From positions 10,697 to 74,696 of IMG/VR virus record IMGVR_UViG_3300028534_000022: DNA of 64,000 nucleotides. One strand, 5' to 3'. This DNA comes from a virus. Below are positions 24,327-45,709 of this stretch, one piece after another (within the stretch, counting starts at the first letter, position 1; each line of letters begins with the position of its first letter). The translations under genes were made by a program, and so were the position numbers. Below the pieces are notes generated by a model, which did not search any database, was not told where the DNA came from, and saw only the letters and a program-made list of their open reading frames with translations.

Positions 24327-27300
24327 ATGTTAAAAAGTATAAAAAAATATTCTGAATTTACAGAAACAATAACTACACAAGAAGAAATTGATAGTGATTG
24401 GGGACTAGTAGCAAGTACTAATCTAACAGTGAAAAGTGAAGAAGTTATATTAGATAATAACGCAACAACAAATACTTCTTTAGTAACATTAGATCCGTAT
24501 GGAATAAATAAATATACGGATATATCAGTAATCTCTGATACGGGCGTTTCGGAAATAAATATTGCAGACAGTGTTATTGGTAATTTTAATTCTGTTAAAA
24601 GTAATACTATGACTGCTAGTGATGCTCAAGATAACAGTAGTTATGGTCGTAATGTTACATTAACTAGTGACGGATTAGTAATGGTTGTAGGAGCATTTAC
24701 TTATGACACAACAGCAGGTACAGATGCAGGTAAAGTATACACATATAAGAGAGCTACTATAGATGATACATGGACTGAAGTTAACCAATTAACAGCTAGT
24801 GATGCTGCTGATAGTGATCGTTTTGGACACAGTGTAGCTCTATCTAGTGATGGTCTAATATTGGTAGTAGGTACACATACAGCAGATACAGCAGGTACAG
24901 ATGCAGGTAAAGTATACACATATAAGAGAGCTACTATAGATGATGCTTGGGTAGAAGTTAACCAGTTGACAGCTAGTGATGCACAAAATTATGATTATTT
25001 TGGTATCTCTGTTGCTATATCTGATGATGGTTTAATATTGGTAGTAGGTGCACCTGGTGAAGATACTGCTGTAAATTATGGAGGTAAAGTCTATACATAT
25101 AAAAGAGCTACTGTAAATGACACATGGACTGAAGTTAACCAACTAACAGCTAGTGATGCTGCTGATAGTGATGAATTTGGATTTTCAGTATCTGTAAATT
25201 CAGAGGGATTAATACTGTTAGTTGGTGCGTGGCGTAAAGATGGAACATATCTAAATGAAGGTAAAGTCTACACATATAAAAGAGCTACTATAGATGATGC
25301 TTGGACTGAAGTTAACCAGATAACTCCTTCAAATGTTGCTGCTGACGATTATCGTTTTGGGGTAGCAGCAAGTATTTCTGATAATGGATTATTGGCAATA
25401 ATTTCCAATTATACGGTTAATGTTAATACTGCTACACCTAGCACAGTAACATTATATAAAAGAGCTACTATAGATGATGTATGGACAGAAATAACAGTGT
25501 TACAAAATGATACTGGTAGCGCTAGTTTCGGAGTAACATTATCTTTAGCATATGGTTCAAAAATACTGGCATTAGGTGATCAACTTATAAATAATGGTCA
25601 AGGTGAGGTATATATGTATAAAATAGGATATCAATTTACAAAAGATATTACCTCTTTAAATTTAACCACAGCACCTACTAAAGCTTTTGTTAAAAAAGAT
25701 GTTAACCTATATATTGATTTAGAAGCTAATAAAAATGAGGTAGTTAATAATTCAAATACTTTTTATTTAAATATTAAAGATACTACTGCTACTGACGGTA
25801 CTAATATTATTACTGATTATGATGAAAGATTATTACCTGGAACTACATTAACTATCGATACTGTAAAAAATAATATTGTTGGTATTACTGGTGGTGAAGT
25901 TGATTTAACACAAATAATAGAAGTTAACCAGTTAACAGCTAGTGATGCTGCTGATAGTGATTATTTTGGTATATCTGTAGCATTATCTTCAGATGGGTTA
26001 GTATTAACAGTAGGTGCTAGAGCGGAAGATACAGCAGGTACCGATGCTGGTAAAGTATACACATATAAAAGAGCTACTATAGATGATACATGGGTAGAAG
26101 TTAACCAGTTAACAGCTAGTGATGCTGCTGATAGTGATTATTTTGGTAGTGGCGTCGCTCTATCTAGTGATGGTCTAATATTGGTAGTAGGTGCACATGC
26201 AGCAGATACAGCAGCTACTGATGCAGGTAAAGTCTATACATATAAAAGAGCTACTATAGATGATACATGGGTAGAAGTTAACCAGTTAACAGCTAGTGAT
26301 GCTGCTGATAGTGATTATTTTGGTAGTGGCGTCGCTCTATCTAGTGATGGGTTAGTATTAGTTGTAGGTGCGGCTAGTGAAGATACTGCTGATACAGATG
26401 CTGGTAAAGTCTACACATATAAAAGAGCTACTATAGATGATGCTTGGACTGAAGTTAACCAACTTACAGCTAGTGATGCTGCAGCTAGTGATCATTTTGG
26501 CTTTAGCGTAGCTCTATCAGGAGATGGTCTAGTAGCTATGGTAGGTGCTTATACTGAAGATACAGCAGGTACCGATGCTGGTAAAGTCTATACGTATACA
26601 AGAGCTACTATAGATGATGTATGGACTGAAGTTAACCAACTAACAGCTAGTGATGCTGCTGATAGTGATCAATTTGGTATATCTGTAGCGCTATCTAGTG
26701 ATGGTCTAGTGTTAGTTGTAAGTGCTTATGCTGAAGATACAGCAGCTAGTGATGCTGGTAAGGTATATGTCTATAAAAGAGCTACGATAGATGATGCTTG
26801 GACTGAAGTTAACCAACTAACAGCTAGTGATGCTCAAGATAGTGATTTATACGGTAGAAGTGTTGGTCTATCTGGTAATGGACTAGTATTAGTAGTAGGT
26901 GCTTATACTGAAGATACCGCAGCTAGTGATGCAGGTAAAGTATACACATATAAACATAATCGTAATGATTTAATATTAGATATTACTAACCACGGTTTAA
27001 CTTCTAAACCAACAAAAGCTTATTTAGAAGGCGGAGAATATACTAAATCGTTTAATAGCGTAATCACAAGTAACACACAAACAGTATTCTTTTCAAAACC
27101 AACAGTTAATCTTAATGATAAAATCTATTTAGATTATATAGAAGTAAATGTAGATAGTGTAGAAAATAGTTTGGTTTCCGATTTAACGCAAATAACAGAA
27201 GTTAACCAGTTAACAGCTAGTGATGCTACTGCTAATGATTATTTTGGCGTAAGTGTGTATTTATCAGGAGATGGGTTAGTATTAATAGTAGGCGCATATG

Positions 27301-28484
27301 GTTCTGATACAGCAGCTACTGATGCAGGTAAAGTCTATACATATAAAAGAGCTACTATAGATGATACATGGGTAGAAGTTAACCAGTTAACAGCTAGTGA
27401 TGCACAAGCTAGTGATTATTTTGGTAGTGGCGTCGCTCTATCTAGTGATGGGTTAGTATTAATAGTGGGTGCGATATATGAAGATACTGCTGATACAGAT
27501 GCTGGTAAAGTCTATACATATACAAGAGCTACTATAGATGATGCTTGGACTGAAGTTAACCAACTAACAGCTAGTGATGCTGCTGCTAATGATCAATTTG
27601 GTATATCTGTAGCATTATCTTCAGATGGGTTAGTATTAACAGTAGGTGCTAGAGCGGAAGATACAGCAGGTACTGATGCAGGTAAAGTCTATACATATAA
27701 AAGAGCTACTATAGATGATACATGGGTAGAAGTTAACCAGTTAACAGCTAGTGATGCTGCTGCTAATGATCAATTTGGACAGTCTCTTGATCTATCTAGT
27801 GATGGTTTAAATATGGTAGTAGGTGCATATTTACAAGATACAGCAGGTACAGATGCTGGTAAAGTCTATACATATAAAAGAGCTACTATAGATGATGCTT
27901 GGACTGAAGTTAACCAGTTAACAGCTAGTGATGCTGCTGCTAGTGATCAATTTGGTGTAAGTGTTTCTATAAATACAGATGGTACTGTGTTAGTAGTCGG
28001 CGCATATAGCGTTGATAACTTAGATGCTGATACAGGTAAAGTATATTTATATCAAAGAGTTACGATTAACGATGCTTGGACAGAAGTTAACCAATTAACA
28101 GCTAGCGATGCAGTTGCTAGTGATAATTTTGGTATAGATGTCGCAATCTCATCTGACGGAAAAACATTGGTAGTAGGTGCTCATTGTTCCGATACTGCAG
28201 CTACTGATGCTGGTAAAGTATATGCTTATAAATTAGGTACTATTACAAGAAATATAGTTACACATGTAGATATCGGAAAACAACCAAAAACCATTATTGT
28301 ACCTAATAGAGGAGTATTAGTGGATCTGAATTATAAATCTTATGATTCAGTTAGTAACGGGTTAAAATATACTTTTAATGATTACTACAAACAAGGTAGA
28401 GCTATTTCTCGCAAACTAACAGCTATTGAACCAGATACATATCTAGTAGAACCATTAACATCTACACTACAAAAAGTACAATAG
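24327..28484 (+). CDS. Large FG-GAP (integrin-alpha-like) repeat protein, three blocks of six repeats; putative receptor-binding protein
   Basis: 18 copies of a ~58-aa unit EVNQLTASDAxxxDxFGxSVALSSDGLVLxVGAxxEDTAxTDAGKVYTYKRATIDDxW. Confidence 0.8.
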   Translation: MLKSIKKYSEFTETITTQEEIDSDWGLVASTNLTVKSEEVILDNNATTNTSLVTLDPYGINKYTDISVISDTGVSEINIADSVIGNFNSVKSNTMTASDAQDNSSYGRNVTLTSDGLVMVVGAFTYDTTAGTDAGKVYTYKRATIDDTWTEVNQLTASDAADSDRFGHSVALSSDGLILVVGTHTADTAGTDAGKVYTYKRATIDDAWVEVNQLTASDAQNYDYFGISVAISDDGLILVVGAPGEDTAVNYGGKVYTYKRATVNDTWTEVNQLTASDAADSDEFGFSVSVNSEGLILLVGAWRKDGTYLNEGKVYTYKRATIDDAWTEVNQITPSNVAADDYRFGVAASISDNGLLAIISNYTVNVNTATPSTVTLYKRATIDDVWTEITVLQNDTGSASFGVTLSLAYGSKILALGDQLINNGQGEVYMYKIGYQFTKDITSLNLTTAPTKAFVKKDVNLYIDLEANKNEVVNNSNTFYLNIKDTTATDGTNIITDYDERLLPGTTLTIDTVKNNIVGITGGEVDLTQIIEVNQLTASDAADSDYFGISVALSSDGLVLTVGARAEDTAGTDAGKVYTYKRATIDDTWVEVNQLTASDAADSDYFGSGVALSSDGLILVVGAHAADTAATDAGKVYTYKRATIDDTWVEVNQLTASDAADSDYFGSGVALSSDGLVLVVGAASEDTADTDAGKVYTYKRATIDDAWTEVNQLTASDAAASDHFGFSVALSGDGLVAMVGAYTEDTAGTDAGKVYTYTRATIDDVWTEVNQLTASDAADSDQFGISVALSSDGLVLVVSAYAEDTAASDAGKVYVYKRATIDDAWTEVNQLTASDAQDSDLYGRSVGLSGNGLVLVVGAYTEDTAASDAGKVYTYKHNRNDLILDITNHGLTSKPTKAYLEGGEYTKSFNSVITSNTQTVFFSKPTVNLNDKIYLDYIEVNVDSVENSLVSDLTQITEVNQLTASDATANDYFGVSVYLSGDGLVLIVGAYGSDTAATDAGKVYTYKRATIDDTWVEVNQLTASDAQASDYFGSGVALSSDGLVLIVGAIYEDTADTDAGKVYTYTRATIDDAWTEVNQLTASDAAANDQFGISVALSSDGLVLTVGARAEDTAGTDAGKVYTYKRATIDDTWVEVNQLTASDAAANDQFGQSLDLSSDGLNMVVGAYLQDTAGTDAGKVYTYKRATIDDAWTEVNQLTASDAAASDQFGVSVSINTDGTVLVVGAYSVDNLDADTGKVYLYQRVTINDAWTEVNQLTASDAVASDNFGIDVAISSDGKTLVVGAHCSDTAATDAGKVYAYKLGTITRNIVTHVDIGKQPKTIIVPNRGVLVDLNYKSYDSVSNGLKYTFNDYYKQGRAISRKLTAIEPDTYLVEPLTSTLQKVQ
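24600..28240 (+). repeat. ~174-bp coding tandem repeats in 3 blocks (approximate bounds)
   Basis: Recurring GAAGTTAACCA(A/G)(T/C)TAACAGCTAGTGATGC and GGTAAAGT(A/C)TA(T/C)AC(A/T)TATAA(A/G)AGAGCTACTATAGATGA. Confidence 0.85.
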
Positions 28485-29798: not shown

Positions 29799-32700
29799 AT
29801 GAAAAGTATGATAGATAATGCTACATATGTAGAAAATATAACTGAACAAGAAGTTACTGAAAAAGCATGGACTAAGTTTGGAGAAAGTACAGTAACTCAT
29901 GACCCAGGAAGATTAGGGTTTAGAAGTTGTGCTAAAATTTTAGATAGTACTGACCCATTTGGAGATGGTAGTTTAACTAATAAGTATTTGTTTTTTAACG
30001 ATACTACTACTGATTTAACAGGTAATCGTGATTTATCTTTAGTTGGTGATGTAGCGTTAATAGATTCTATTTATGGTAAAGGTATAAATTGTTTAAGTCC
30101 GGATACCAGCCCTACTAGCGATTATTCAAATCTGGATATAAATTTTTTTAATGACAATGATTCATTCAGCATACATATTGTATTTATGGTTAATAGTTGT
30201 TCTTCCGGATTAACTAATTCAATATATTCAAATTATAATTGTGATATCCAAGTATATACTGGATTAATATTCTACGACGACTTAATGTTGCGATATAGTT
30301 ATTGGGATAGAAATACATCTAGTACAGCATACCATAATATCTTACCTCATGCTTTAGAATTAAATAAAAAATATGTAGTGACGGTAACTACAGATAAACA
30401 AACTAATACAAATACATTATATGTTAATGGTATGTTGGTCGATAAAGTTGTACATAGTGCTATTGCTAATAATTTAAGTCAAACACCAAGAATTTTTGGA
30501 TGGGAGAATAACTGTGATAATAATAATCATATTAGTGCTGATGTAGTTATCTATGAATTAGAGCTCTATAATAGAGCATTAACACACGAAGACCATCTTA
30601 AATTATTAACACAGGTGTTAAGTACTGAAGAAAAAGTAAATACAATTTACCCAGTAACTAAAGAGATACCTTCTTCTATTTACGAGAATATGCTAGTTGC
30701 TAATACCAATAATAGTATTTTAAATATGAAAGTTGATAGTGTTGAAAGAGATATCTTTACTATAGTCGAAAAACAACAACTTACTGCCAGTGATGCTCAA
30801 GATAGTGATTTATATGGCGCATCTGTAGCCATATCTAGTGACGGATTAGTATTAGCAGTAGGTTCTAATTATGAAGATACAGCAGGTACAGATGCAGGTA
30901 AAGTATATACCTATAAAAGAGCTACTGTAAATGACGTATGGACTGAAGTTAACCAACTTACTGCCAGTGATGCTCAAGATAGTGATTTATATGGCGTATC
31001 TGTAGCCATATCTAATGATGGGTTAGTGTTAGTAGTAGGAGCATATACTGAAGATACGGCAGGTACTAATGCAGGTAAAGTATACACTTATAAGAGAGCC
31101 ACTATAGATGATACATGGACTGAAGTTAACCAACTAACAGCTAGTGATGCTCAAGATAATGATAATTTTGGTAGCAGTGTATCTATGTCTAATAATGGTT
31201 TAGTAATGGCTGTAGGCGCATATGGCGAGGATACTGCTGTAAACTTAGCTGGTAAAGTCTATACATATAAAAGAGCTACTATAGATGATACATGGGTAGA
31301 AGTTAACCAACTAACAGCTAGCGATGCCCAAGATAGTGATGAATTTGGTAAATCAGTAGCACTATCTAATAATGGTTTGGTATTGACCGTAGGTGCGTAT
31401 TATGAAGATACGGCAGGTACTAATGCAGGTAAAGTATACACTTATAAAAGACCTACTGTAAATGACGTATGGACTGAAGTTAACCAACTAACAGCTAGTA
31501 ATGCTGGGGCTGGTGATTATTTTGGTTCATCTACTGCATTATCTGGTGATGGGCTAGTGTTAGTAGTTGGAGCAAATGGTGAAGATGATGCGTCAGGGGA
31601 TGCTGGTAAAGTATACACTTATAAGAGAGCTACTATAGATGATGCTTGGGTAGAAGTTAACCAACTAACAGCTAGCGATGCACAAGATAGTGACTATTTT
31701 GGTGTGAGTGTTTCTATAAATGCAGATGGCGCTATCTTGGTAGTAGGTGCGAAAAATAAAGATGTAGCCGGCACTAACACTGGTAAAGTTTACGAATATC
31801 GCATAGGCGATTTAGTAATAGCTGATATTACAACATCTAATACAAATAATGAAGTAATCATAGATGCTTTCGAAGATAATGATTTACATTTATTAATGAC
31901 TTTAGAAGATACTAAAGATAGATGTATTAGTATTCCTAATAATCAGCATTTAGATATTGTTGCTGTAAATGATCCGTATAATAATATTATTACTGTTAAT
32001 ACAGATATAGATATTAATACAGGAATGAATGTTATGGCTGATGGAGTAAATCAGTCTTTAACTAATGTTACATTTAAGGAAGTCGATTTTAATACTATTA
32101 CTGAAATAAGTCAGCTATACGCACTAGATACATCAACTAACGATCAATATGGGTCTGCTGTATCTATTACTAACGATGGATTAATTATGTTGGTAGGTGC
32201 ATATGGTAATGATTCAATAGATAATGATACTGGTAAAGTATATGAATATCAAAGAAAATCGATTTATGATAGCTGGGTAGAAGTTAACCAACTAACAGCT
32301 AGTGACGCTACTGCTGGTGATTATTTTGGTACATCTGTATCAATATCTAATGACGGCTTAGTGTTAATTGTTGGCGCATCATATGAAGATACTGCAGGTA
32401 GTAACGCCGGTAAAGTATATACCTATAAAAGAGCTACTGTAAATGACGTATGGACTGAAGTTAACCAACTAACAGCTAGTGATGCTCAAGATAATGATAA
32501 TTTTGGTAGACGTTTATCCTTATCTAGTGACGGATTAGTATTAGTAGTAGGAGCATATTTACAAGATACTGCAGCTACTGATGCAGGTAAAGTCTATACT
32601 TATAAGAGATCTACTATAGATGATACATGGACTGAAGTTAACCAACTAACAGCTAGTGATGCTGCAGCTAGTGATGGGTTTGGTCATGGGTTAACATTAG

Positions 32701-34631
32701 CAAATAATGGGTTACTTATGATCGTTGGGGCGTATAATGAGGGTAGTGGAGCAGGTAAAGTTTATGAATATCAGAGAGTAAGCATAAATGACGCATGGAC
32801 TGAAATAAGACAAATGACTGCTCTGAATAGTGGCGGTGATGATCGTTTTGGTATAGGTGTGGCTGTTTCTGAAAATGGATTAGTAATGGCGGTAGGCGCT
32901 GATTATGCTGACGATAATGGAACTAATGCTGGTAAAGTATATGTGTACCAAAGATCTACAATAACAGATAATTGGACAGAAGAACTAAGAATGACTGCAG
33001 CAGACGGACAAGCATCTGATTATTATGGTCAAGGAGTTGCTGTTGGTTTAGATGGAAAAATATTAATTGTTGGTTCTATGGGTGCAGATACAACAACTAC
33101 TGATACCGGTAAAGTATATGAATACCGATCTAATGGTGTTTATGATTTAGATTTAACTAACCATAACCTTACTAATAATCCTAGATTACTCTATATTAAT
33201 GGTGGCTTAGAATTTAATTTAAAATCAATTACCAGTACAGAAGCTATAGGATATGTAGATTACCGTAACTATAAAGGTATTGCTAATAAACACAATTACC
33301 TTACTACTGGAGATACTTTAAATATTGATGGTAAAGATATAGTTCTTACAAATACGGTATCTAATATAGGTGAAATTTTATTTGATACTATTACTGAAAT
33401 AAGACAACTAACTGCTAGTGATGCCGGAGATGGTGCACAATACGGTGCTAGTGTAGATATTTCTGATGATAAATTAATGTTATTTATAGGTGCAACATTC
33501 GGTGTTTCTGATGGTGTCGATACAGGTAAAGTATACGAATATCGTCGCTCTACTATGGATGATGATTGGGTAGAAATCAGTAATTTTTGCGCATCCGATA
33601 GCGCATCCGGAGATAATTTTGGGTCAGCTGTTAATATAACGAATAATGGATTAATCTTATTAGTAGGTGCCGCTAACCATAGTGGTGATAATGGTAAAGT
33701 CTACGAATACCAAAGACCAGATATAGATTCTGATTGGACAGAAGTTAATGTTTTAAATGCAAGATCAACAGATGAAAGATTTGGTAAAAGTATAGATAGT
33801 ACTCCAGATGGACTCACATTGGTAGTCGGAGCTAAATACTATGATTCCGGAATTGGTAGAGTATATACATATTATAGACAAACTATCAATGACGAGTGGA
33901 CATTTGATGAAACAATTTCTTCAACTAGTACAAATATGGAATATTTCGGAGATGATGTTGCTATTAGTAGTAATGGTATGGCATTAATTATTGGCGCGCA
34001 TTATAACAATAGTACTCGAGGTATAGCATATAGTTATGTTAAAGATGATACATGGACTAGAATTAATACTATTTTACCTTCAGATATATCATCAGAAGAT
34101 AGATTTGGTATGGGTTTAGATATGTCATCTGATGGATTATTATGTGCGATTTCTTCACTTACTGAAGATACTGCAGCTAGTAATGCTGGTAAAGTATACT
34201 TTTTTAAACGAGACAGGATAGATTCTAGCTGGAATGAATTTATGACAATAACTGCTAGCGATGCTCAAGATAATGATTATTATGGTATGGGTGTAGCATT
34301 ATCTAGCGACGGGCTTGTATTAGTAGTAGGAGCATTTTTACAAGATACTGCAGCTAGTAATGCAGGTAAAGCATATATATATCAAATGGATTATATTGAA
34401 GATATTACTGTAACTTATGATGATTTAGGATATACTCCTATTAAAGCAAAAGTTCCTAATAGACAAACATTAATTCCTATTAGTAACAAACTATATGAAT
34501 TAACCAATATTAAACATACTTATGGTGAATTCATTAAAGGAGGTAGAGCAGTTCAACGTACACTTATCATGTCTAAAAAAGATATGGTAGTTAAAGAACC
34601 ACTTTCTACATTATTATATTATCAAACATAA
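29799..34631 (+). CDS. LamG/concanavalin-like domain plus 3 x 6 FG-GAP repeats; putative receptor-binding protein
   Basis: N-terminal DPFGDGS...FSIHIVF...LYVNG...IYELELYNRALT (LamG-like); 18 FG-GAP units; C-terminus GRAVQR...EPLS paralogous to GRAISR...EPLT of 24327..28484. Confidence 0.8.
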   Translation: MKSMIDNATYVENITEQEVTEKAWTKFGESTVTHDPGRLGFRSCAKILDSTDPFGDGSLTNKYLFFNDTTTDLTGNRDLSLVGDVALIDSIYGKGINCLSPDTSPTSDYSNLDINFFNDNDSFSIHIVFMVNSCSSGLTNSIYSNYNCDIQVYTGLIFYDDLMLRYSYWDRNTSSTAYHNILPHALELNKKYVVTVTTDKQTNTNTLYVNGMLVDKVVHSAIANNLSQTPRIFGWENNCDNNNHISADVVIYELELYNRALTHEDHLKLLTQVLSTEEKVNTIYPVTKEIPSSIYENMLVANTNNSILNMKVDSVERDIFTIVEKQQLTASDAQDSDLYGASVAISSDGLVLAVGSNYEDTAGTDAGKVYTYKRATVNDVWTEVNQLTASDAQDSDLYGVSVAISNDGLVLVVGAYTEDTAGTNAGKVYTYKRATIDDTWTEVNQLTASDAQDNDNFGSSVSMSNNGLVMAVGAYGEDTAVNLAGKVYTYKRATIDDTWVEVNQLTASDAQDSDEFGKSVALSNNGLVLTVGAYYEDTAGTNAGKVYTYKRPTVNDVWTEVNQLTASNAGAGDYFGSSTALSGDGLVLVVGANGEDDASGDAGKVYTYKRATIDDAWVEVNQLTASDAQDSDYFGVSVSINADGAILVVGAKNKDVAGTNTGKVYEYRIGDLVIADITTSNTNNEVIIDAFEDNDLHLLMTLEDTKDRCISIPNNQHLDIVAVNDPYNNIITVNTDIDINTGMNVMADGVNQSLTNVTFKEVDFNTITEISQLYALDTSTNDQYGSAVSITNDGLIMLVGAYGNDSIDNDTGKVYEYQRKSIYDSWVEVNQLTASDATAGDYFGTSVSISNDGLVLIVGASYEDTAGSNAGKVYTYKRATVNDVWTEVNQLTASDAQDNDNFGRRLSLSSDGLVLVVGAYLQDTAATDAGKVYTYKRSTIDDTWTEVNQLTASDAAASDGFGHGLTLANNGLLMIVGAYNEGSGAGKVYEYQRVSINDAWTEIRQMTALNSGGDDRFGIGVAVSENGLVMAVGADYADDNGTNAGKVYVYQRSTITDNWTEELRMTAADGQASDYYGQGVAVGLDGKILIVGSMGADTTTTDTGKVYEYRSNGVYDLDLTNHNLTNNPRLLYINGGLEFNLKSITSTEAIGYVDYRNYKGIANKHNYLTTGDTLNIDGKDIVLTNTVSNIGEILFDTITEIRQLTASDAGDGAQYGASVDISDDKLMLFIGATFGVSDGVDTGKVYEYRRSTMDDDWVEISNFCASDSASGDNFGSAVNITNNGLILLVGAANHSGDNGKVYEYQRPDIDSDWTEVNVLNARSTDERFGKSIDSTPDGLTLVVGAKYYDSGIGRVYTYYRQTINDEWTFDETISSTSTNMEYFGDDVAISSNGMALIIGAHYNNSTRGIAYSYVKDDTWTRINTILPSDISSEDRFGMGLDMSSDGLLCAISSLTEDTAASNAGKVYFFKRDRIDSSWNEFMTITASDAQDNDYYGMGVALSSDGLVLVVGAFLQDTAASNAGKAYIYQMDYIEDITVTYDDLGYTPIKAKVPNRQTLIPISNKLYELTNIKHTYGEFIKGGRAVQRTLIMSKKDMVVKEPLSTLLYYQT
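30770..34390 (+). repeat. ~174-bp coding repeats, second gene (approximate bounds; third block divergent)
   Basis: Same unit as 24600-28240 in blocks 1-2, degenerate in block 3. Confidence 0.8.
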
Positions 34632-34644
34632 TATAATCAATACA

Positions 34645-34676
34645 TACTACAAGTCCTTCATTGAGGACTTGTAGTA
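34645..34676 (+). terminator. Hairpin terminator upstream of the lysis/TCS block
   Basis: TACTACAAGTCCT-N6-AGGACTTGTAGTA. Confidence 0.65.
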
Positions 34677-34714: not shown

Positions 34715-35404
34715 ATGATTAAGTATTTATATTGGTTATTTGTTTTATTCATGGTGGTTTTTAGAAAACTAACTGGATTGATTATGGTATGGTTCACATT
34801 GCCATTTAGGAGTTATGCTAGGAATACTATTTATTCTTATCATTTAGAAAATGATATCTTTTTAAAACGTTTATGGGAAAGAAGACCTAAAAAAGTTGTT
34901 ACTGGATTATGGGAATTAACATGGTCACCGCACCCAGTTAAAGCTAATACTAGGTTTATACATACTAGAAAAGTTAGTATAGTAGAGTACTATTTAGTAC
35001 TTTGGTTATTATGGGGTTGGTTAGACGATGATGCTAATGAGGATACATATGATAAAGGATTTAACCAAACTATAATAAATCATAAACGTAAAAAATGGAT
35101 TCCTAATTTTATAATTAATAAATTACAAAAAGCAGTAGATAAAGCTAAAGTGTGTCCAGTAGAAGGTAATTCTTTTGATTTAGGTGACACAAGAGGTTAT
35201 TATCCTTTATTTGAATTTTGGTCTACACTTTTATGGACTAACCGTAATACTGCTTATAATTTTAATTATAAATTCCATGAAATATCTAATAAAAAGTTAG
35301 TATGGTCTATTAAAGTAAAAGGTGGGTTAATAGGATGGCGTGAGGGTACTAAAGTACAAGGCATTCAAACATACAATTTTGAAATATATTATAAGGAAAA
35401 ATAA
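34715..35404 (+). CDS. Putative membrane protein (Trp-rich, WTNRNTAYNF motif)
   Basis: Hydrophobic N-terminal and central segments; first gene of the lysis-like block. Confidence 0.6.
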   Translation: MIKYLYWLFVLFMVVFRKLTGLIMVWFTLPFRSYARNTIYSYHLENDIFLKRLWERRPKKVVTGLWELTWSPHPVKANTRFIHTRKVSIVEYYLVLWLLWGWLDDDANEDTYDKGFNQTIINHKRKKWIPNFIINKLQKAVDKAKVCPVEGNSFDLGDTRGYYPLFEFWSTLLWTNRNTAYNFNYKFHEISNKKLVWSIKVKGGLIGWREGTKVQGIQTYNFEIYYKEK

Positions 35405-35919
35405 TGCACAAAACAAATCGGTCTACTGATACATTAATCTATTTTGGTGTAACACAAGGAGTATCTTTTTATTCTAAAATCATCAAATGGTTTCAATGGG
35501 GTAACCCTAATGTACATGTCTTTTATCTACCTGAAGAAGGTTATAAAGAAATAGATCCAGTTATTATAGAATCAATGGCGGGCTATGGTGTACATGAAGA
35601 TAAACTTTCTAAATCACATACACCGGGAACGATATATACTGTTTTTTCTTTACGGGTTACTAAAAAACAAAAAGAAGAGTTTGAACAATTCTTACGTTCT
35701 AAAATTGGACTTAAATACGATTATCGCGGTTTACTAGGTTTTGGTATCAGAGTGAATACCAATATCAAAGATAAGTACTTCTGTTCTGAACTAGTATATG
35801 AAGGATTACAATCTGTAGGAGTTAATCTTTTTAGAACACTTAAACCAGAACAAGTTTTCCCTTCTTTATTTATAGAGTCAATCTTACTTAAAGAAGAATA
35901 CAAAACCAATACAATATAA
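35404..35919 (+). CDS. Permuted papain-like amidase (YiiX/YebB-like NlpC/P60)
   Basis: His (NVHV) precedes Cys (IGLKYDY...YFCSELV), the permuted order. Confidence 0.75.
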   Translation: MHKTNRSTDTLIYFGVTQGVSFYSKIIKWFQWGNPNVHVFYLPEEGYKEIDPVIIESMAGYGVHEDKLSKSHTPGTIYTVFSLRVTKKQKEEFEQFLRSKIGLKYDYRGLLGFGIRVNTNIKDKYFCSELVYEGLQSVGVNLFRTLKPEQVFPSLFIESILLKEEYKTNTI

Positions 35920-35928
35920 GGATACAAC

Positions 35929-36459
35929 ATGGGAAGAAAAATTACATTAGAAGAATCTAAGAACATTAGACTATCTGAAAACTTTACTTTAGACGAGTTT
36001 ATATATTCTGAAGTAGCTGAAAAATATGGTATTGACAATAGTATGCCTGAAGCATATTTACCACATATACAGTATTTAGTAACAACGGTATTACAACCGG
36101 TTAGGGATAAATTTGGTCCTATCAAAGTTCTCTCCGGTTATAGATCGCCGGAACTATCAACACACCCTAAAATAGGTAGTTCAAAATACTCTAACCACTG
36201 TTTTGGATATGCTGCTGATATTGAACCATACGATACTAACATACCATTAACTGAAGTGTTACGTTATATTCACGCACATTTAGACTATAAAGAACTTATA
36301 GCTGAACACTTTCCGTCAGGATGGGTGCATGTAGCAGCACAGAAATATAACAACAAACACGTTTTAAAATTAAAAGATAAAACACACCACTATACTAAAG
36401 TAAGTATTGATTTTATTAATACTCTTTATCCAAGAAATAAAACAACGAGGGTAGCATAG
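35929..36459 (+). CDS. Peptidase M15A endolysin
   Basis: LSENFTLDEF, LQPVRDKFG, SGYRS, SNHCFGYAADI, WVHV. Confidence 0.88.
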   Translation: MGRKITLEESKNIRLSENFTLDEFIYSEVAEKYGIDNSMPEAYLPHIQYLVTTVLQPVRDKFGPIKVLSGYRSPELSTHPKIGSSKYSNHCFGYAADIEPYDTNIPLTEVLRYIHAHLDYKELIAEHFPSGWVHVAAQKYNNKHVLKLKDKTHHYTKVSIDFINTLYPRNKTTRVA

Positions 36460-36482
36460 CTATCCTCCTATAAGGAATAGCT

Positions 36483-36992
36483 ATGTCTGATAAAGAAAAA
36501 ATAAATGTTGAAATAGAAAACATCATAACTGAGTTAACACATATTAAAGATAAACTTTATGATTTACAAGAATCTACATCTAGTGAAAATATATTTAAAG
36601 ATTTAGTTAAACTAAATAACATAGAAACTGAGCTATATGAAATACTTATTTTACTCTATTCTAATAACAAAGCAGAATTAGATTTAGTAAAACATAACCA
36701 TATGACTCACAGTAGCAAAATTGTAGATAGTTCTATTAATATTGCTAATAAGATATCTTTGCTTAAAAAAGATTTAGATCACTTAGAGACTAAAGTAGAA
36801 GAACATACAACACAATTAAGTAAACTTAATACTAGTAGTAAGAAAAATACATTAAAAGTAGTTTTAATATTTTTCGGTATGGGACTCATTACTTTTATTA
36901 TATTTATGTTTTCTATTCATTACTTCCCAGAAGAAACATCTAAAATGCTAGAATTTATATTATCGGCATTAGATACAAAAGCATTAGCTTAA
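36483..36992 (+). CDS. Coiled-coil protein with a single C-terminal TM helix (holin-like candidate)
   Basis: Heptad N-terminus; TM VVLIFFGMGLITFIIFMFSIHYF; follows the endolysin. Confidence 0.55.
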   Translation: MSDKEKINVEIENIITELTHIKDKLYDLQESTSSENIFKDLVKLNNIETELYEILILLYSNNKAELDLVKHNHMTHSSKIVDSSINIANKISLLKKDLDHLETKVEEHTTQLSKLNTSSKKNTLKVVLIFFGMGLITFIIFMFSIHYFPEETSKMLEFILSALDTKALA

Positions 36993-37005
36993 TTAAGGAT
37001 ATACA

Positions 37006-37683
37006 ATGTTATTCAATTTTAGTAAGATCACGAATCTATTTTCATCAGATGCTAAATCTGAAGTTAAAAAAACTACTAATAAGAGAGAGACGATAGAGGA
37101 TATTTTTGACTCTAAAGATTATTCAGTTGATTTTAAAGTTAATCAGTTAGACCTCAATACATTTGAAGATCCAATCATAATAAATTCAGACAAAGAAAAG
37201 ACCCTACTTATATTAGACGACATAGAAGAGTCAGACTATCTATTCAATATTGATTTCCGTATAATTAAAGAAAAATATGGATATGATATCTTTAAGGAAT
37301 TAAAGATAGTTAAATGTTACGGTAAGCAAGCAGGATTTATAGCAAAAAAATATCTATCTAATCCAGACAATAAAGTAGATTATGCTATATTAGATATTAC
37401 ATTAGGTAATAGTTTAAAACTAGCTGACGGTAGTTATATAGAGTATGATGGCATAGATATAGGTTTACAAATATTAGAACAAAACCCAGAAGCTATTATT
37501 AGGTTCCTAACTGCACATACTCTTAATAGACGTAACCCAATGATGATGGAGTACTTTAATAAGTTTGAAAGTAATACTAATAAACTTATTGATGATTTTT
37601 ACATAAATAAAAATGGTGATAGACCTAACAAATACGCTGTGATGCTAGGTATATTGAAAGAAGATCAAAATGGAAAAGATTAG
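37006..37683 (+). CDS. Stand-alone response-regulator receiver (REC) protein with N-terminal extension
   Basis: LLILDD (beta1), AILDITL (phospho-acceptor Asp), DGIDI, FLTAH (Thr), YINK (Lys); overlaps the kinase start. Confidence 0.8.
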   Translation: MLFNFSKITNLFSSDAKSEVKKTTNKRETIEDIFDSKDYSVDFKVNQLDLNTFEDPIIINSDKEKTLLILDDIEESDYLFNIDFRIIKEKYGYDIFKELKIVKCYGKQAGFIAKKYLSNPDNKVDYAILDITLGNSLKLADGSYIEYDGIDIGLQILEQNPEAIIRFLTAHTLNRRNPMMMEYFNKFESNTNKLIDDFYINKNGDRPNKYAVMLGILKEDQNGKD

Positions 37684-39091
37684 TTTAGCACTCATATTTA
37701 CTACTAAAAATATAAAAAACTATATAAAAAATATATCTTTAAGTTTAATTATTGTTTCTTTATTCGAAATATGGATTTTACACCTTATATATATGAATAG
37801 AGTAGACCATTTAAAAAATGAAACTATTTCTCTTTTAAAAGAGAGTGATTATGATTTTCATTTAGTTTGTAATATTACTAATTGTAAATATATAATTTAT
37901 GATAATGTAATATATCTAGTAAAGGATAATGCTAAATTAATAAAAACTATAGATTATAATTTAGAAAGTAACATGATACCAGGTATATGCTTTACTAAAG
38001 AATGGTATACAGTAATGCATTTAGGATATATAGATAAGCATAAAATAATACTCGTTATAGACGATATATTATATCTTAAAAATATAATACGTGCATTATA
38101 TTATAATATACTTATGTTAATACTTATATTCACAGTAACTTATTTTAGTTATATTTATTATTTAGAGAAATCTAACCTAGTAGAAAAAAGAACATATGAA
38201 TTAGAGCTAGAAGGTACATTACAGAGAACTTTAACTGAATCAGCACACCATGAAATGATGATGCCGTTAGCAGTAATAAAAACATTATTTAACGATTTTA
38301 TAAGACAGTTATATCCTTGTTCTATTAACGATAACGGTATATGTAGTTACATTACCAATAAATCTCCGTGCCAGAACTGCGCGCATAGAAATAGTAAGTA
38401 TACTAGAAAAGTTGATACTTTAGTCATCAACTATTTTAATAAGATTAATTTAGCTATAGAACAACTGGAATCTGTATTATCACAAATGTCAGAAACAAAA
38501 CATATCAAATATTCTAATGGTAACAAAGGAATATATGAATTACTTAATAATGCAGTACAAACTATTAATAGTAGTAGTGTACAGAAGTTAACTCTTAATA
38601 TGCGTAAAGAAGATAAAGAACTATTAAATAACTATGCAGTTAATAAGCCATTAACTAATGGTGACGTATTAAATATTTTTAGTAATCACATTAACAATAG
38701 TAAAGAAGCTAAGGCTACTATTATTAAAGTTAAAGCATTACTACACAAAGATAATAAAGTTGTTATTTATCTGGGAGATAACGGAATAGGTATACGTGAT
38801 AAATACGGACACATTATAGATACTGATACAGTATTTAAAAACGGGTTTAGTACTAAAGATAAAGCTGGTAATGCTATAGTGGTTGAAGCTACCTGGTTAA
38901 ATAAAATTAAAGATATATTAGATACATTATTTGGTAGTAAAAGAACTACTAAATCTGTAAGAGGTGTAGGTTTATTCATAAATAAAAATATACTTAATAA
39001 AGCAGGTGGTGATGTTGAGCTAGTAGATACTAGTGAAAATGGTACCGTTTTTAAACTAACAATACCTGTTAAAAAGAAACATTTAGAATAA
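37670..39091 (+). CDS. Membrane-bound sensor histidine kinase
   Basis: Two TM helices flanking ~95 aa; H-box AHHEMMMPL; N-box SNHINNSKEA; G1 DNGIGI; F VFKNGFSTK; G2 GVGL...GGDVEL...GTVFKLTIP. Confidence 0.9.
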   Translation: MEKISLALIFTTKNIKNYIKNISLSLIIVSLFEIWILHLIYMNRVDHLKNETISLLKESDYDFHLVCNITNCKYIIYDNVIYLVKDNAKLIKTIDYNLESNMIPGICFTKEWYTVMHLGYIDKHKIILVIDDILYLKNIIRALYYNILMLILIFTVTYFSYIYYLEKSNLVEKRTYELELEGTLQRTLTESAHHEMMMPLAVIKTLFNDFIRQLYPCSINDNGICSYITNKSPCQNCAHRNSKYTRKVDTLVINYFNKINLAIEQLESVLSQMSETKHIKYSNGNKGIYELLNNAVQTINSSSVQKLTLNMRKEDKELLNNYAVNKPLTNGDVLNIFSNHINNSKEAKATIIKVKALLHKDNKVVIYLGDNGIGIRDKYGHIIDTDTVFKNGFSTKDKAGNAIVVEATWLNKIKDILDTLFGSKRTTKSVRGVGLFINKNILNKAGGDVELVDTSENGTVFKLTIPVKKKHLE

Positions 39092-39120
39092 CATAGTTAC
39101 GATAATCGTAACTATGTTAT
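39088..39120 (+). terminator. 16-bp-arm palindrome closing the lysis/TCS block
   Basis: ATAACATAGTTACGAT-A-ATCGTAACTATGTTAT, overlapping the stop. Confidence 0.7.
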
Positions 39121-45675: not shown

Positions 45676-45709
45676 TACTACAGTAGAGCTATTATGCTCT
45701 ACTGTAGTA
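45676..45709 (+). terminator. Hairpin
   Basis: TACTACAGTAGAGC-N6-GCTCTACTGTAGTA. Confidence 0.65.

What the first reader, a model, noticed from the sequence alone, without database searches (positions are those of the whole stretch)
34715..39091. Phage-encoded two-component system embedded in a lysis-type operon
Six tightly packed co-oriented genes lie between two hairpins: membrane protein, permuted NlpC/P60 amidase, M15 endolysin, coiled-coil+TM holin-like protein, REC protein and a two-TM sensor kinase. All phosphotransfer residues appear intact (H-box His, N/G1/F/G2 boxes; DD, D, T, K). The REC protein has no DNA-binding output, implying action by protein contact. Hypothesis: the phage senses a periplasmic cue (superinfection, envelope state, density) and sets lysis timing, or cross-talks with host two-component systems. 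A cognate kinase-receiver pair tied to lysis genes in a lytic jumbo phage is not something I know to be described.
Basis: partly seen in the sequence, partly recalled or inferred. Interest (0 to 1): 0.85.

Follow-up and report, generated by a model that had tools for sequence, protein, structure and literature searches.

The report
Jumbo-phage two-component system beside lysis genes
An uncultured phiKZ-like jumbo phage from a hydrothermal-vent-type habitat carries its own complete sensor-kinase/receiver pair plus a conserved membrane partner, in one operon with its cell-wall-cutting enzymes; this undescribed, virus-specific cassette recurs next to lysis genes in many big phages, so it may set the time of host bursting.

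Summary
Six co-oriented genes (34715-39091) lie between two terminator-like hairpins, with gaps of at most 23 nt. They encode a membrane protein, a C92 papain-like amidase, an M15 peptidase, a tail-anchored helical membrane protein (ccTM), a stand-alone receiver (REC) and a two-TM HisKA-type histidine kinase (HK).

REC gets no Pfam hit. Its model, Foldseek hits, a profile search and 19 of 75 relatives all say receiver. All phosphotransfer residues are conserved family-wide.

ccTM-REC-HK is a virus-specific cassette. REC sits directly upstream of HK in 24 of 24 loci, and ccTM precedes REC in almost all. Relatives often add a small secreted Cys protein and a probable outer-membrane barrel. No cellular homologue and no paper were found.

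The lysis link is partly supported. Twelve of about 28 loci, in several separate lineages, have lysis-type genes within four genes: M15_3, T5-type M15C, GH108, C92, and in some a 3-TM holin or spanin-like pair. In other genomes the endolysin lies 18-95 kb away. ccTM is REC's fixed partner, not a recognisable holin.

Best reading (about 0.5): a phage-owned envelope sensor that sets lysis timing through REC~P acting on ccTM. Phosphotransfer and output are untested.

The scan noted this cassette and theme before on other DNA (e1-3280471, e1-5375828).

The parts
34645..34676 (+). Terminator-like hairpin upstream of the block: 14-bp stem, 4-nt loop, T-rich tail. Its stem begins TACTACA, like the hairpin at 45676-45709.
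34715..35404 (+). g1, 229 aa. N-terminal TM at about 7-26 plus a domain of about 200 aa. phrog_9573 (unknown function), DUF7338-like. Homologues in Vibrio phages ICP1 and GR7B are annotated hypothetical. Role unknown; it could be a lysis membrane component, untested.
35404..35919 (+). g2, 171 aa. Permuted papain-like (NlpC/P60 superfamily) Peptidase_C92, with an FCSELV Cys motif. The family recurs beside endolysins or the cassette in L002, L016, L024, L025, L034, L036 and L047.
35929..36459 (+). g3, 176 aa. Peptidase_M15_3 (phrog_894 endolysin). Zn-ligand motif SNHCFGYAAD...WVHV present. No signal peptide or TM, so it should need a membrane lesion to reach the wall.
36483..36992 (+). g4 (ccTM), 169 aa. 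Helical cytoplasmic domain of about 120 aa, one C-terminal TM (127-145), then Pro and a short tail. No Pfam or PHROG family. It is the positional orthologue directly upstream of REC in almost every related locus, and the proposed output partner of REC.
37006..37683 (+). g5, 225 aa. Stand-alone divergent receiver: a low-confidence N-terminal 60 aa, then a (beta-alpha)5 REC at 64-222. It has D71/D72, phospho-acceptor D130 (nt 37393-37395), T169 and K202, and a family-specific 11-residue beta-hairpin insert after D130. No output domain.
37670..39091 (+). g6, 473 aa histidine kinase. TM1 is at 22-40. A periplasmic alpha/beta domain of about 75 aa (59-132) carries a conserved CX4C (C67, C72). TM2 at 147-165 runs straight into DHp helix 1 with no HAMP. 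The H-box is at H193-H194-E-x3-P199 (nt 38246-38266). A Cys-rich DHp loop spans 217-237 (nt 38318-38380). The CA domain has N343, D370-x-G-x-G374, F389 and G432-x-G434.
39088..39120 (+). Terminator-like hairpin overlapping the HK stop codon (15-bp stem, 3-nt loop, ATTTTATATT tail).

Best explanation
Shown or strongly indicated by sequence: the phage encodes its own classical two-component pathway. The inner-membrane HisKA-type kinase has a small periplasmic Cys-containing sensor domain. It should autophosphorylate on H194 and pass the phosphoryl group to D130 of the stand-alone receiver encoded just upstream. The two genes overlap by 14 nt.

Inferred: the receiver has no output domain, so it acts by contact. 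Its most likely target is the cytoplasmic helical domain of the tail-anchored membrane protein g4 (ccTM), encoded directly upstream of REC in nearly every relative. ccTM in turn modulates membrane-lesion formation as an antiholin or holin regulator. That would control release of the signal-less M15 peptidase and the C92 amidase made from the same operon.

The phage would thus couple the time of lysis to a periplasmic or envelope cue such as superinfection, envelope or redox state, or density. Relatives extend the sensor outward with a small secreted Cys protein and a probable outer-membrane barrel.
For: 1. Both proteins are genuine and under selection for phosphotransfer. The REC model has pLDDT 80 and every top Foldseek hit is a REC domain. 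The REC profile hits PDB receivers, aligning D130 to the RR468 acceptor, and 19 of 75 relatives hit PF00072. The HK profile and model hit HK853 and other HisKA kinases. Catalytic residues are near-invariant.

2. The pair is cognate. In 24 of 24 loci REC is upstream on the same strand, mostly overlapping or within 14 nt. REC and HK pairwise distances correlate at r = 0.87.

3. ccTM lies directly upstream of REC in essentially all loci. It keeps the same architecture despite 10-25% identity, including an HK-less locus (L036).

4. Lysis genes recur beside the cassette in separate lineages and with unrelated enzymes:
- C92-M15_3 in W, L024 and L025.
- Divergent M15_3 in L016.
- GH108 + PG_binding_3 plus a GTA_holin_3TM holin directly upstream in L010 and L012.
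- GH108 directly upstream in L033.
- C92 plus a GH108-like gene in L036.
- An M15-like gene in L037.
- A T5-type L-Ala-D-Glu peptidase plus a spanin-like pair in L044.
- C92 flanked by small multi-TM proteins in L047.
The HK tree places these in at least three well-separated clades.

5. M15 has no export signal, so a regulated membrane step is needed.

6. The block is bounded by terminator-like hairpins, with no room for internal promoters between genes.
Against: - There are no biochemical, expression or phenotype data. No RNA run holds the sequence.
- In about half of the loci no lysis gene lies nearby. In four larger genomes the recognisable endolysin is 18-95 kb away.
- ccTM matches no holin or antiholin family.
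- No holin is identified in this window.
- Phage genomes are modular, so lying in the same late region as lysis genes could be partly historical.
- The H-box lacks the usual Thr/Asn at H+4 (it reads HHEMMMP). The meaning of this for kinase-phosphatase balance is unknown.
- AI notes from the same scan that reach a similar reading are not independent evidence.
Confidence: 0.5

Rival explanations
1. Envelope or superinfection sensor with a non-lysis output. The same HK-REC-ccTM pathway, with a secreted protein and outer-membrane barrel in relatives, monitors the host envelope. It then drives superinfection exclusion, envelope maintenance during the long jumbo-phage cycle, or control of virion or receptor-related proteins. 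Proximity to lysis genes would only reflect a shared late or envelope-related genome region.
For: - The conserved core includes periplasmic and probable outer-membrane components: f4/f9 proteins with signal peptides, and f2 with DUF3373 hits and a C-terminal Phe.
- Half of the loci lack nearby lysis genes.
- In this window the block lies between giant FG-GAP fibre-like proteins and other large, probably structural, genes.
Against: Lysis-type genes lie within four genes of the cassette in 12 of about 28 loci, with three unrelated hydrolase families. This is far above the few per cent expected for a random position in a genome of 200-270 genes (my estimate). A holin directly precedes ccTM in L010 and L012.
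Confidence: 0.2
2. Host-directed receiver. REC~P, or unphosphorylated REC, acts on host or phage cytoplasmic machinery rather than on ccTM. It could act as a CheY-like motor or chemotaxis modulator, a phosphate sink for host two-component systems, or a CpdR-like adaptor of a ClpX-type unfoldase.
For: - The closest structural and sequence relatives are single-domain receivers: CheY, Spo0F and RR468.
- A ClpX-like AAA+ gene with a ClpX zinc finger lies divergently next to the cassette in L011, L013, L018 and L019.
- L036 has REC and ccTM but no kinase, which suggests host kinases can feed some members.
Against: - The ClpX neighbour is confined to one clade.
- ccTM, not ClpX, is the universal neighbour.
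- The family-specific hairpin insert and the invariant G149, D151 and H171 point to a dedicated partner rather than generic cross-talk.
Confidence: 0.15
3. ccTM is itself the hole-former (an unconventional tail-anchored holin), gated directly by REC~P. g1 would be an accessory protein.
For: - ccTM is a small membrane protein encoded right after the endolysin in W, L024, L025 and L033.
- No other holin is recognisable in this window.
Against: - It has a single C-terminal TM with a tail of only about 20 aa, unlike known holin classes.
- A genuine PF11351 holin coexists with it in L010 and L012.
- It has no family match.
Confidence: 0.1
4. Inert or decaying cargo: a captured bacterial two-component system with no function in infection, or a pseudo-kinase/pseudo-receiver pair.
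For: REC escapes Pfam. The H+4 phosphatase residue is absent from the H-box.
Against: - All catalytic residues are conserved across 19 HKs and 75 RECs at 25-45% identity.
- The family has 263 clusters at 50% identity, and the nearest Atlas clusters are viral.
- No cellular homologue turned up in 185,579 species genomes by pattern scan.
- Gene order is strictly conserved.
Confidence: 0.03

Closest known systems
HisKA-type two-component systems with single-domain receivers (HK853-RR468 of Thermotoga maritima; also CheY, Spo0F, DivK, CpdR)
   Same: - DHp H-box (H-E-x3-P) and a CA domain with N, G1, F and G2 boxes.
- A (beta-alpha)5 receiver with DD, D, T and K.
- Adjacent, co-inherited genes.
- A receiver without an output domain, so presumably acting by protein contact.
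- HK853 and RR468 are the best solved matches.
   Different: - It is encoded by, and apparently restricted to, large phages.
- The receiver has a 60-aa N-terminal extension, an 11-residue hairpin insert after the acceptor Asp, and the invariants G149, D151 and H171.
- The kinase has no HAMP, carries a Cys-rich insert in the DHp hairpin, and has Met instead of Thr/Asn at H+4.
- It has a fixed tail-anchored membrane partner gene.
T4 lysis inhibition (periplasmic antiholin RI and cytoplasmic RIII acting on holin T)
   Same: A phage-encoded device that reads a periplasmic or envelope cue and would change holin triggering time. Its components are encoded with or near the lysis genes.
   Different: There is no sequence or fold relation. 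T4 uses direct protein binding, not His-Asp phosphotransfer. The link to a holin is inferred here, not shown.
LytSR (and CidR) control of the holin/antiholin-like cid/lrg genes in Staphylococcus and Streptococcus (for example PMC3507848)
   Same: A two-component system tied to holin-like membrane proteins and murein-hydrolase activity.
   Different: That system is bacterial, not viral. LytR is a LytTR DNA-binding regulator acting on transcription, whereas this receiver has no DNA-binding domain.
cREC domains of jumbo phages (Iyer et al. 2021, PMC7824862)
   Same: A divergent receiver-fold protein found in jumbo phages that escapes standard annotation.
   Different: cREC is described as never associated with histidine kinases and as linked to NAD+/ADP-ribose enzymes. 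The family here sits directly upstream of a kinase in 24 of 24 kinase-sampled loci; only L036, found through REC, lacks one. It has no such NAD+/ADP-ribose neighbours.
Phage phiCDHM1 agr locus (agrB, agrD, agrC kinase; recalled from Hargreaves et al. 2014, not checked here)
   Same: A phage-borne sensor histidine kinase.
   Different: That is a temperate Clostridioides phage with a host-derived quorum-sensing kinase and no receiver. It has no lysis-gene context.

Membership tests
Two-component system: HisKA-class histidine kinase | DHp helix with a phospho-accepting His in an H-E-x-x-x-P H-box | tested here: met
   H193-H194-E195-x3-P199. H194, E195 and P199 are 19/19 in relatives. They align to the HK853 H-box. 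The model shows a two-helix DHp hairpin.
Two-component system: HisKA-class histidine kinase | GHKL ATP-binding CA domain with N, G1 (DxGxG), F and G2 (GxG) boxes | tested here: met
   PF02518 E 1.1e-8, above the cut-off. N343, D370, G372, G374, F389, G432 and G434 are all 19/19. Foldseek top hits are HisKA kinases.
Two-component system: HisKA-class histidine kinase | Thr/Asn at H+4 (phosphatase motif E-x-x-T/N) | tested here: not met
   The window has HHEMMMP, with Met at H+4, and so do close relatives. A distant clade has HHELNTP. This bears on phosphatase activity, not on kinase membership.
Two-component system: HisKA-class histidine kinase | ATP-dependent autophosphorylation and His-to-Asp transfer | not testable with these tools
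   Needs biochemistry.
Receiver (REC, CheY-like) domain | (beta-alpha)5 fold | tested here: met
   The AF2 model has pLDDT 80 and shows beta1-alpha1 through beta5-alpha5 at residues 66-213. The top 50 PDB hits and the Swiss-Prot hits are REC domains.
Receiver (REC, CheY-like) domain | Acidic pair, phospho-acceptor Asp, Thr/Ser and Lys at the canonical positions | tested here: met
   D71/D72, D130, T169 and K202 are conserved in 70-75 of 75 relatives. D130 aligns with the acceptor of RR468.
Receiver (REC, CheY-like) domain | Match to Pfam PF00072 above the cut-off | tested here: not met
   There is no hit for the window protein even at E <= 1. Of 75 family members, 19 match at E <= 0.01. It is a divergent subfamily.
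Cognate (paired) kinase-receiver | Conserved adjacency and co-evolution | tested here: met
   24 of 24 loci are adjacent on the same strand. The distance correlation is r = 0.87.
Holin (for g4/ccTM) | Membership of a known holin family, or holin topology with a charged C-terminal tail | tested here: not met
   No Pfam or PHROG holin match. It has a single TM at the C-terminal end. It coexists with a PF11351 holin in L010 and L012.
Holin (for g4/ccTM) | Forms lethal membrane lesions that release endolysin | not testable with these tools
   Needs expression assays.
M15 (LAS-type) peptidoglycan peptidase / endolysin (g3) | Family profile match and H-x(3-6)-D...H zinc ligands | tested here: met
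   PF08291 E 1.4e-10, above the cut-off. phrog_894 endolysin E 1.7e-27. The motif residues are present in the sequence. Activity was not tested.
Peptidase_C92 (YaeF/YiiX permuted papain-like) (g2) | Family profile match | tested here: inconclusive
   25.5 bits against a cut-off of 27. The L024 orthologue carries PF05708 in the precomputed hits. phrog_1128 E 9e-20. The substrate, wall or lipid, is unknown.
cREC of jumbo phages (Iyer 2021) | Never linked to histidine kinases; linked to NAD+/ADPr enzymes | tested here: not met
   It is linked to an HK in all 24 kinase-sampled loci, though the REC-sampled L036 lacks one. It has no NAD/ADPr neighbours.

The most novel reading that the evidence does not exclude
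Receiver domains paired with a tail-anchored helical membrane protein are a widespread, unrecognised class of phage lysis regulators, in effect a phosphorylation-gated antiholin. In jumbo phages such as this one the phage supplies its own envelope-spanning sensor: an outer-membrane barrel, a periplasmic Cys protein and an inner-membrane kinase. That would make a two-component equivalent of T4 lysis inhibition, letting the virus time the burst in response to superinfection or envelope or redox state.
Probability: 0.35. Interest if true: 0.85.

Novelty: new variant of a known kind. Interest (0 to 1): 0.75.

Why it matters
Lysis timing is the main life-history decision of a lytic phage. The only well-understood sensory control of it is T4-type lysis inhibition. 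A phage-owned His-Asp phosphorelay wired to lysis genes would be a new regulatory principle.

It would also show that viruses run complete bacterial-type signal transduction for their own ends. And it would give function to a large set of 'hypothetical' viral proteins: at least 263 receiver clusters at 50% identity.

It is directly testable with standard kinase assays, two-hybrid tests or co-folding, and plasmid lysis assays. The kinase's periplasmic CX4C domain and Cys-rich DHp insert offer handles on the signal.

Even if the output is not lysis, a conserved virus-specific envelope-sensing cassette in phiKZ-like phages is new biology. These phages otherwise isolate their DNA from the host.

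Tried and rejected
- Cultured-phage records: megablast of the block and tblastn of HK and REC gave no match. No cultivable model was found.
- Cellular genomes: a pattern scan of 185,579 species genomes with the HK alignment gave only weak generic CA-domain hits in Mucilaginibacter-type MAGs. A host-derived origin was not traceable.
- Pfam and PHROG on REC: no hit. Fold and profile evidence was needed instead.
- cREC (Iyer 2021) was considered and rejected, because that family is defined by the absence of kinases.
- g1 homologues in ICP1 and GR7B: neighbours are all hypothetical, so this was uninformative.
- L009 candidate lysis cassette (197 aa plus three small TM proteins upstream of ccTM): no Pfam, PHROG or PDB support. 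I left it uncounted.
- f2 and f4 homologues in the window or its contig: none. The contig is only 28% complete, so absence from the phage is not shown.
- Broader REC-based locus retrieval failed because the alignments were too diverse. A back-translated AILDITLG DNA pattern gave only four true loci of 12.
- RNA evidence: no RNA run holds the sequence, so co-transcription is untested.
- The Pfam C92 model missed known C92 genes in whole-record scans. The genome-wide hydrolase distances are therefore lower-bound evidence.
- Atlas search for ccTM gave only weak helical-hairpin look-alikes, some of them DHp-like. There is no conserved His, so a phosphotransfer role for ccTM was rejected.

Full report
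**What is there**

The window is most of a 75.3-kb IMG/VR contig judged 28% complete. It has about 30% G+C. It carries split multisubunit RNA-polymerase beta genes (phrog_3295, phrog_3015), ribonucleotide reductase, a 726-aa major head protein (phrog_3231) and several HNH genes. So it is a fragment of a phiKZ-like jumbo phage. The only run that holds the stretch almost fully is an 'epibiont metagenome'. Small shares occur in hydrothermal-vent metagenomes. One relative sits on a 165-kb contig binned with an Arcobacter MAG. A Campylobacterota host is plausible but not shown.

All are on the + strand, with junctions from a 14-nt overlap to a 23-nt gap. Two strong terminator-like hairpins bracket them, at 34645-34676 and 39088-39120. 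The block is therefore operon-like. No RNA data exist to prove co-transcription.

**The enzymes and membrane proteins**

- g3 is a Peptidase_M15_3 / phrog_894 endolysin with its zinc-ligand motif. It has no signal peptide or TM.
- g2 is a permuted papain-like Peptidase_C92. It scores just under Pfam's cut-off here and is called in the 81%-identical relative.
- g1 has an N-terminal TM and belongs to phrog_9573 / DUF7338-like viral proteins of unknown function. Its homologues in Vibrio phage ICP1 are uninformative.
- g4 is helical with one C-terminal TM (127-145) and matches no family.

**The kinase**

g6 has two TMs (22-40, 147-165) and PF02518 above the cut-off. An alignment of 19 relatives at 27-81% identity keeps H194-E195-x3-P199, N343, D370-x-G372-x-G374, F389 and G432-x-G434 in all 19.

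The family profile finds HK853 and other HisKA kinases in the PDB, with the H-boxes aligned. The AF2 model (pLDDT 76) shows these elements in order:
- TM1;
- a periplasmic helix-plus-beta-sheet domain of about 75 residues;
- TM2, continuous with DHp helix 1, with no HAMP;
- a poorly modelled Cys-rich loop (217-245);
- DHp helix 2;
- a CA domain.

Its Foldseek hits are histidine kinases. Two oddities stand out. C225 and C237 in the DHp loop are invariant, and the periplasmic C67-x4-C72 is largely conserved. Also, H+4 is Met rather than Thr/Asn (HHEMMMP). From general knowledge of HisKA kinases this predicts weak phosphatase activity. That is an inference only.

**The receiver**

- With nine homologues, AF2 gives pLDDT 80 and a clean (beta-alpha)5 fold at residues 66-213, after a disordered N-terminus.
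- The top PDB and Swiss-Prot Foldseek hits are all receiver domains: CheY, ComE, ArcA, DesR, Spo0F, RcsB and others.
- An exhaustive profile search finds 263 clusters at 50% identity, nearly all 190-310 aa.
- A profile of 75 of them hits PDB receivers (RR468, E 1.3e-4) with D130 on the acceptor Asp.
- 19 of the 75 hit PF00072 on their own.
- D71, D72, D130, T/S169 and K202 are kept in 70-75 of 75.

Family hallmarks are an 11-residue beta-hairpin insert after the acceptor Asp and the invariant or near-invariant G149, D151 and H171. The nearest Atlas clusters are viral and unnamed. There is no output domain.

**The conserved unit**

The HK alignment pulled 20 IMG/VR loci, many on contigs of 126-272 kb, several with terminal repeats or estimated complete. 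Further assemblies came by exact protein look-up.

In 24 of 24 loci with a full-length kinase, REC lies directly upstream on the same strand, mostly overlapping or within 14 nt. In L014 two genes are inserted between them. REC and HK pairwise distances correlate at r = 0.87. This is what a cognate, co-inherited pair looks like.

Directly upstream of REC is always a protein of about 150 aa with the g4 architecture: helical N-domain, K-rich linker, one C-terminal TM, Pro, short tail. Two apparent exceptions, L010 and L013, were ORF-calling artefacts. L021 has a shorter version.

Downstream of HK, many relatives add two genes. One is a protein of about 90 aa with a signal peptide, Cys pairs and a GW(L/I)R motif. 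The other is a protein of about 390 aa that hits DUF3373 in two members and ends in Phe, and so is probably an outer-membrane barrel. The window, and the part of its contig that is held, lack these two.

A pattern scan of 185,579 species genomes found no cellular counterpart.

**Is it tied to lysis?**

Evidence for a link:
- The window's arrangement (C92-M15-ccTM-REC-HK) is kept at 81% and 47% HK identity (L024, L025).
- L016 has M15 divergently upstream and C92 three genes downstream.
- L010 and L012, in the other half of the HK tree, have a GH108 + PG_binding_3 endolysin divergent from a PF11351 3-TM holin. That holin is immediately followed by ccTM-REC-HK.
- L033 has a GH108 endolysin directly upstream.
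- L034 has C92 two genes downstream.

Sampling through distant REC family members, independently of the kinase, gave three further cases and one more with C92:
- L036: C92, a GH108-like PG_binding_3 protein, one gene, then ccTM-REC, with no kinase.
- L037: a divergent M15-like peptidase (BLASTP against g3 E 2e-4, motifs aligned), then ccTM-REC-HK.
- L044: a spanin-like overlapping TM/lipoprotein pair, a T5-type L-Ala-D-Glu peptidase (PDB 2mxz, E 4.7e-14), and a small TM protein, then ccTM-REC, a periplasmic protein and HK.
- L047: C92 flanked by small multi-TM proteins, four genes upstream.

That makes 12 of about 28 loci. They fall in at least three well-separated clades of the HK tree and involve three unrelated hydrolase families. 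For a genome of 200-270 genes with one or two endolysins, chance adjacency is a few per cent per lineage. This is my estimate, not a tool result, and modular phage genome organisation inflates the true null.

Evidence against:
- In L004 the M15 and GH108 genes lie 48 kb away.
- In L008 the M15 gene lies 95 kb away.
- In L017 and L020 the GH108 gene lies 18 kb and 25 kb away.
- In L002 the C92 and GH108-like genes lie 7-8 kb away.
- Several complete genomes have no hydrolase that I could recognise.

So the link is frequent and recurrent, but not obligatory.

**Mechanism proposed**

Shown by sequence: there is a complete, conserved, virus-specific HisKA kinase plus stand-alone receiver plus fixed membrane partner.

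Inferred: the kinase reads a periplasmic or envelope cue. REC~P binds the cytoplasmic helical domain of ccTM. ccTM then modulates hole formation, and with it the release of the signal-less M15 and C92 enzymes.

ccTM is unlikely to be a phosphotransfer protein, because it has no conserved His. It is also unlikely to be the primary holin, because it coexists with one.

The alternatives are a non-lysis envelope output, host-directed action including a CpdR/ClpX-like route suggested by a ClpX-like neighbour in one clade, ccTM as an unconventional holin, and inert cargo. They are weighed in the rival explanations.

**Comparison and novelty**

By defining features, the pair is a member of the classical HisKA/REC two-component kind. 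All sequence features are met except the Pfam REC threshold and the H+4 residue.

What is new is the owner (large lytic phages), the divergent receiver subfamily, the fixed tail-anchored partner, the optional periplasmic and outer-membrane accessories, and the recurrent lysis-gene context.

Full-text searches found no paper describing phage kinase-receiver cassettes or receivers in lysis cassettes. The jumbo-phage survey of Iyer et al. describes only kinase-independent cREC domains. The 'Receiver domain' of N4 gp63 is an unrelated usage.

Earlier notes of this scan report the same cassette in other genomes (e1-3280471, e1-5375828) and the wider theme of receivers with membrane-anchored coiled-coil partners beside lysis genes (e1-3425433, e1-3263929, e1-4036006). 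These are AI notes. I used them as leads and re-derived the relevant points here.

**Verdict**

It is a new variant of a known kind and of high interest. The decisive work is ordinary biochemistry and lysis assays.

Noticed in passing
window 38318-38380 (HK residues 217-237); also residues 67-72 (nt 37868-37885): The loop between the two DHp helices holds a Cys-rich insert. C225 and C237 are invariant in 19 relatives; C217 is kept in 12/19 and C234 in 7/19. The periplasmic domain has a largely conserved CX4C. These could be metal or redox inputs. The loop is poorly modelled (pLDDT below 50).
   Followed up: partly
window 38246-38266 (HK H-box): The H-box reads HHEMMMP. The Thr/Asn at H+4 that HisKA kinases use for phosphatase activity is Met in the window's clade, but T in a distant clade (HHELNTP). 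REC has an invariant His at T+2 (H171) and Thr at D+2 (T132). This suggests an unusual phosphoryl-group lifetime.
   Followed up: no
window 34645-34676 and 45676-45709: Two terminator-like hairpins share the stem start TACTACA...TGTAGTA (14-bp stems). This may be a repeated phage terminator or regulatory hairpin family.
   Followed up: no
L011:5146-6297, L013:5616-6794, L018:5431-6606, L019:5467-6705 (all on the - strand): In one clade a ClpX-like AAA+ protein (AAA_2, ClpB_D2-small, ClpX zinc finger) is encoded divergently, right next to the ccTM-REC-HK cassette. This recalls the CpdR-ClpX adaptor logic.
   Followed up: partly
L036:4267-7624 (159.5-kb contig): A kinase-less version: C92, a GH108-like PG_binding_3 protein, a 316-aa protein, ccTM and REC, followed by a 1511-aa protein. 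Some family members may depend on host kinases.
   Followed up: partly
L044:2359-6451: An apparently complete lysis region next to the cassette. It holds an overlapping TM/lipoprotein (spanin-like) pair, an HD-domain-like 200-aa protein, a small TM protein, a T5-type M15C endolysin and an 84-aa coiled-coil TM protein. Then come ccTM, REC, a 203-aa Cys-rich protein with TMs at both ends, and HK.
   Followed up: partly
L002:14258-16956: A diversity-generating retroelement (bAvd, RVT_1 reverse transcriptase, DUF4376 target-like gene) lies 4 kb downstream of the cassette on the 165-kb contig binned as Arcobacter sp.
   Followed up: no
window 29799-34631 and 24327-28484: Giant FG-GAP-repeat proteins lie directly upstream of the block. 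The 1610-aa one has 16 FG-GAP_2 stretches at E 3e-189 and a sialidase/LamG-like N-terminal part. They are probably receptor-binding fibres.
   Followed up: no
loci around the cassette (tally): SmpB (tmRNA partner, E 2e-51) and actin-like ALP_N genes occur within five genes of the cassette in two relatives each. These are unusual phage cargo.
   Followed up: no
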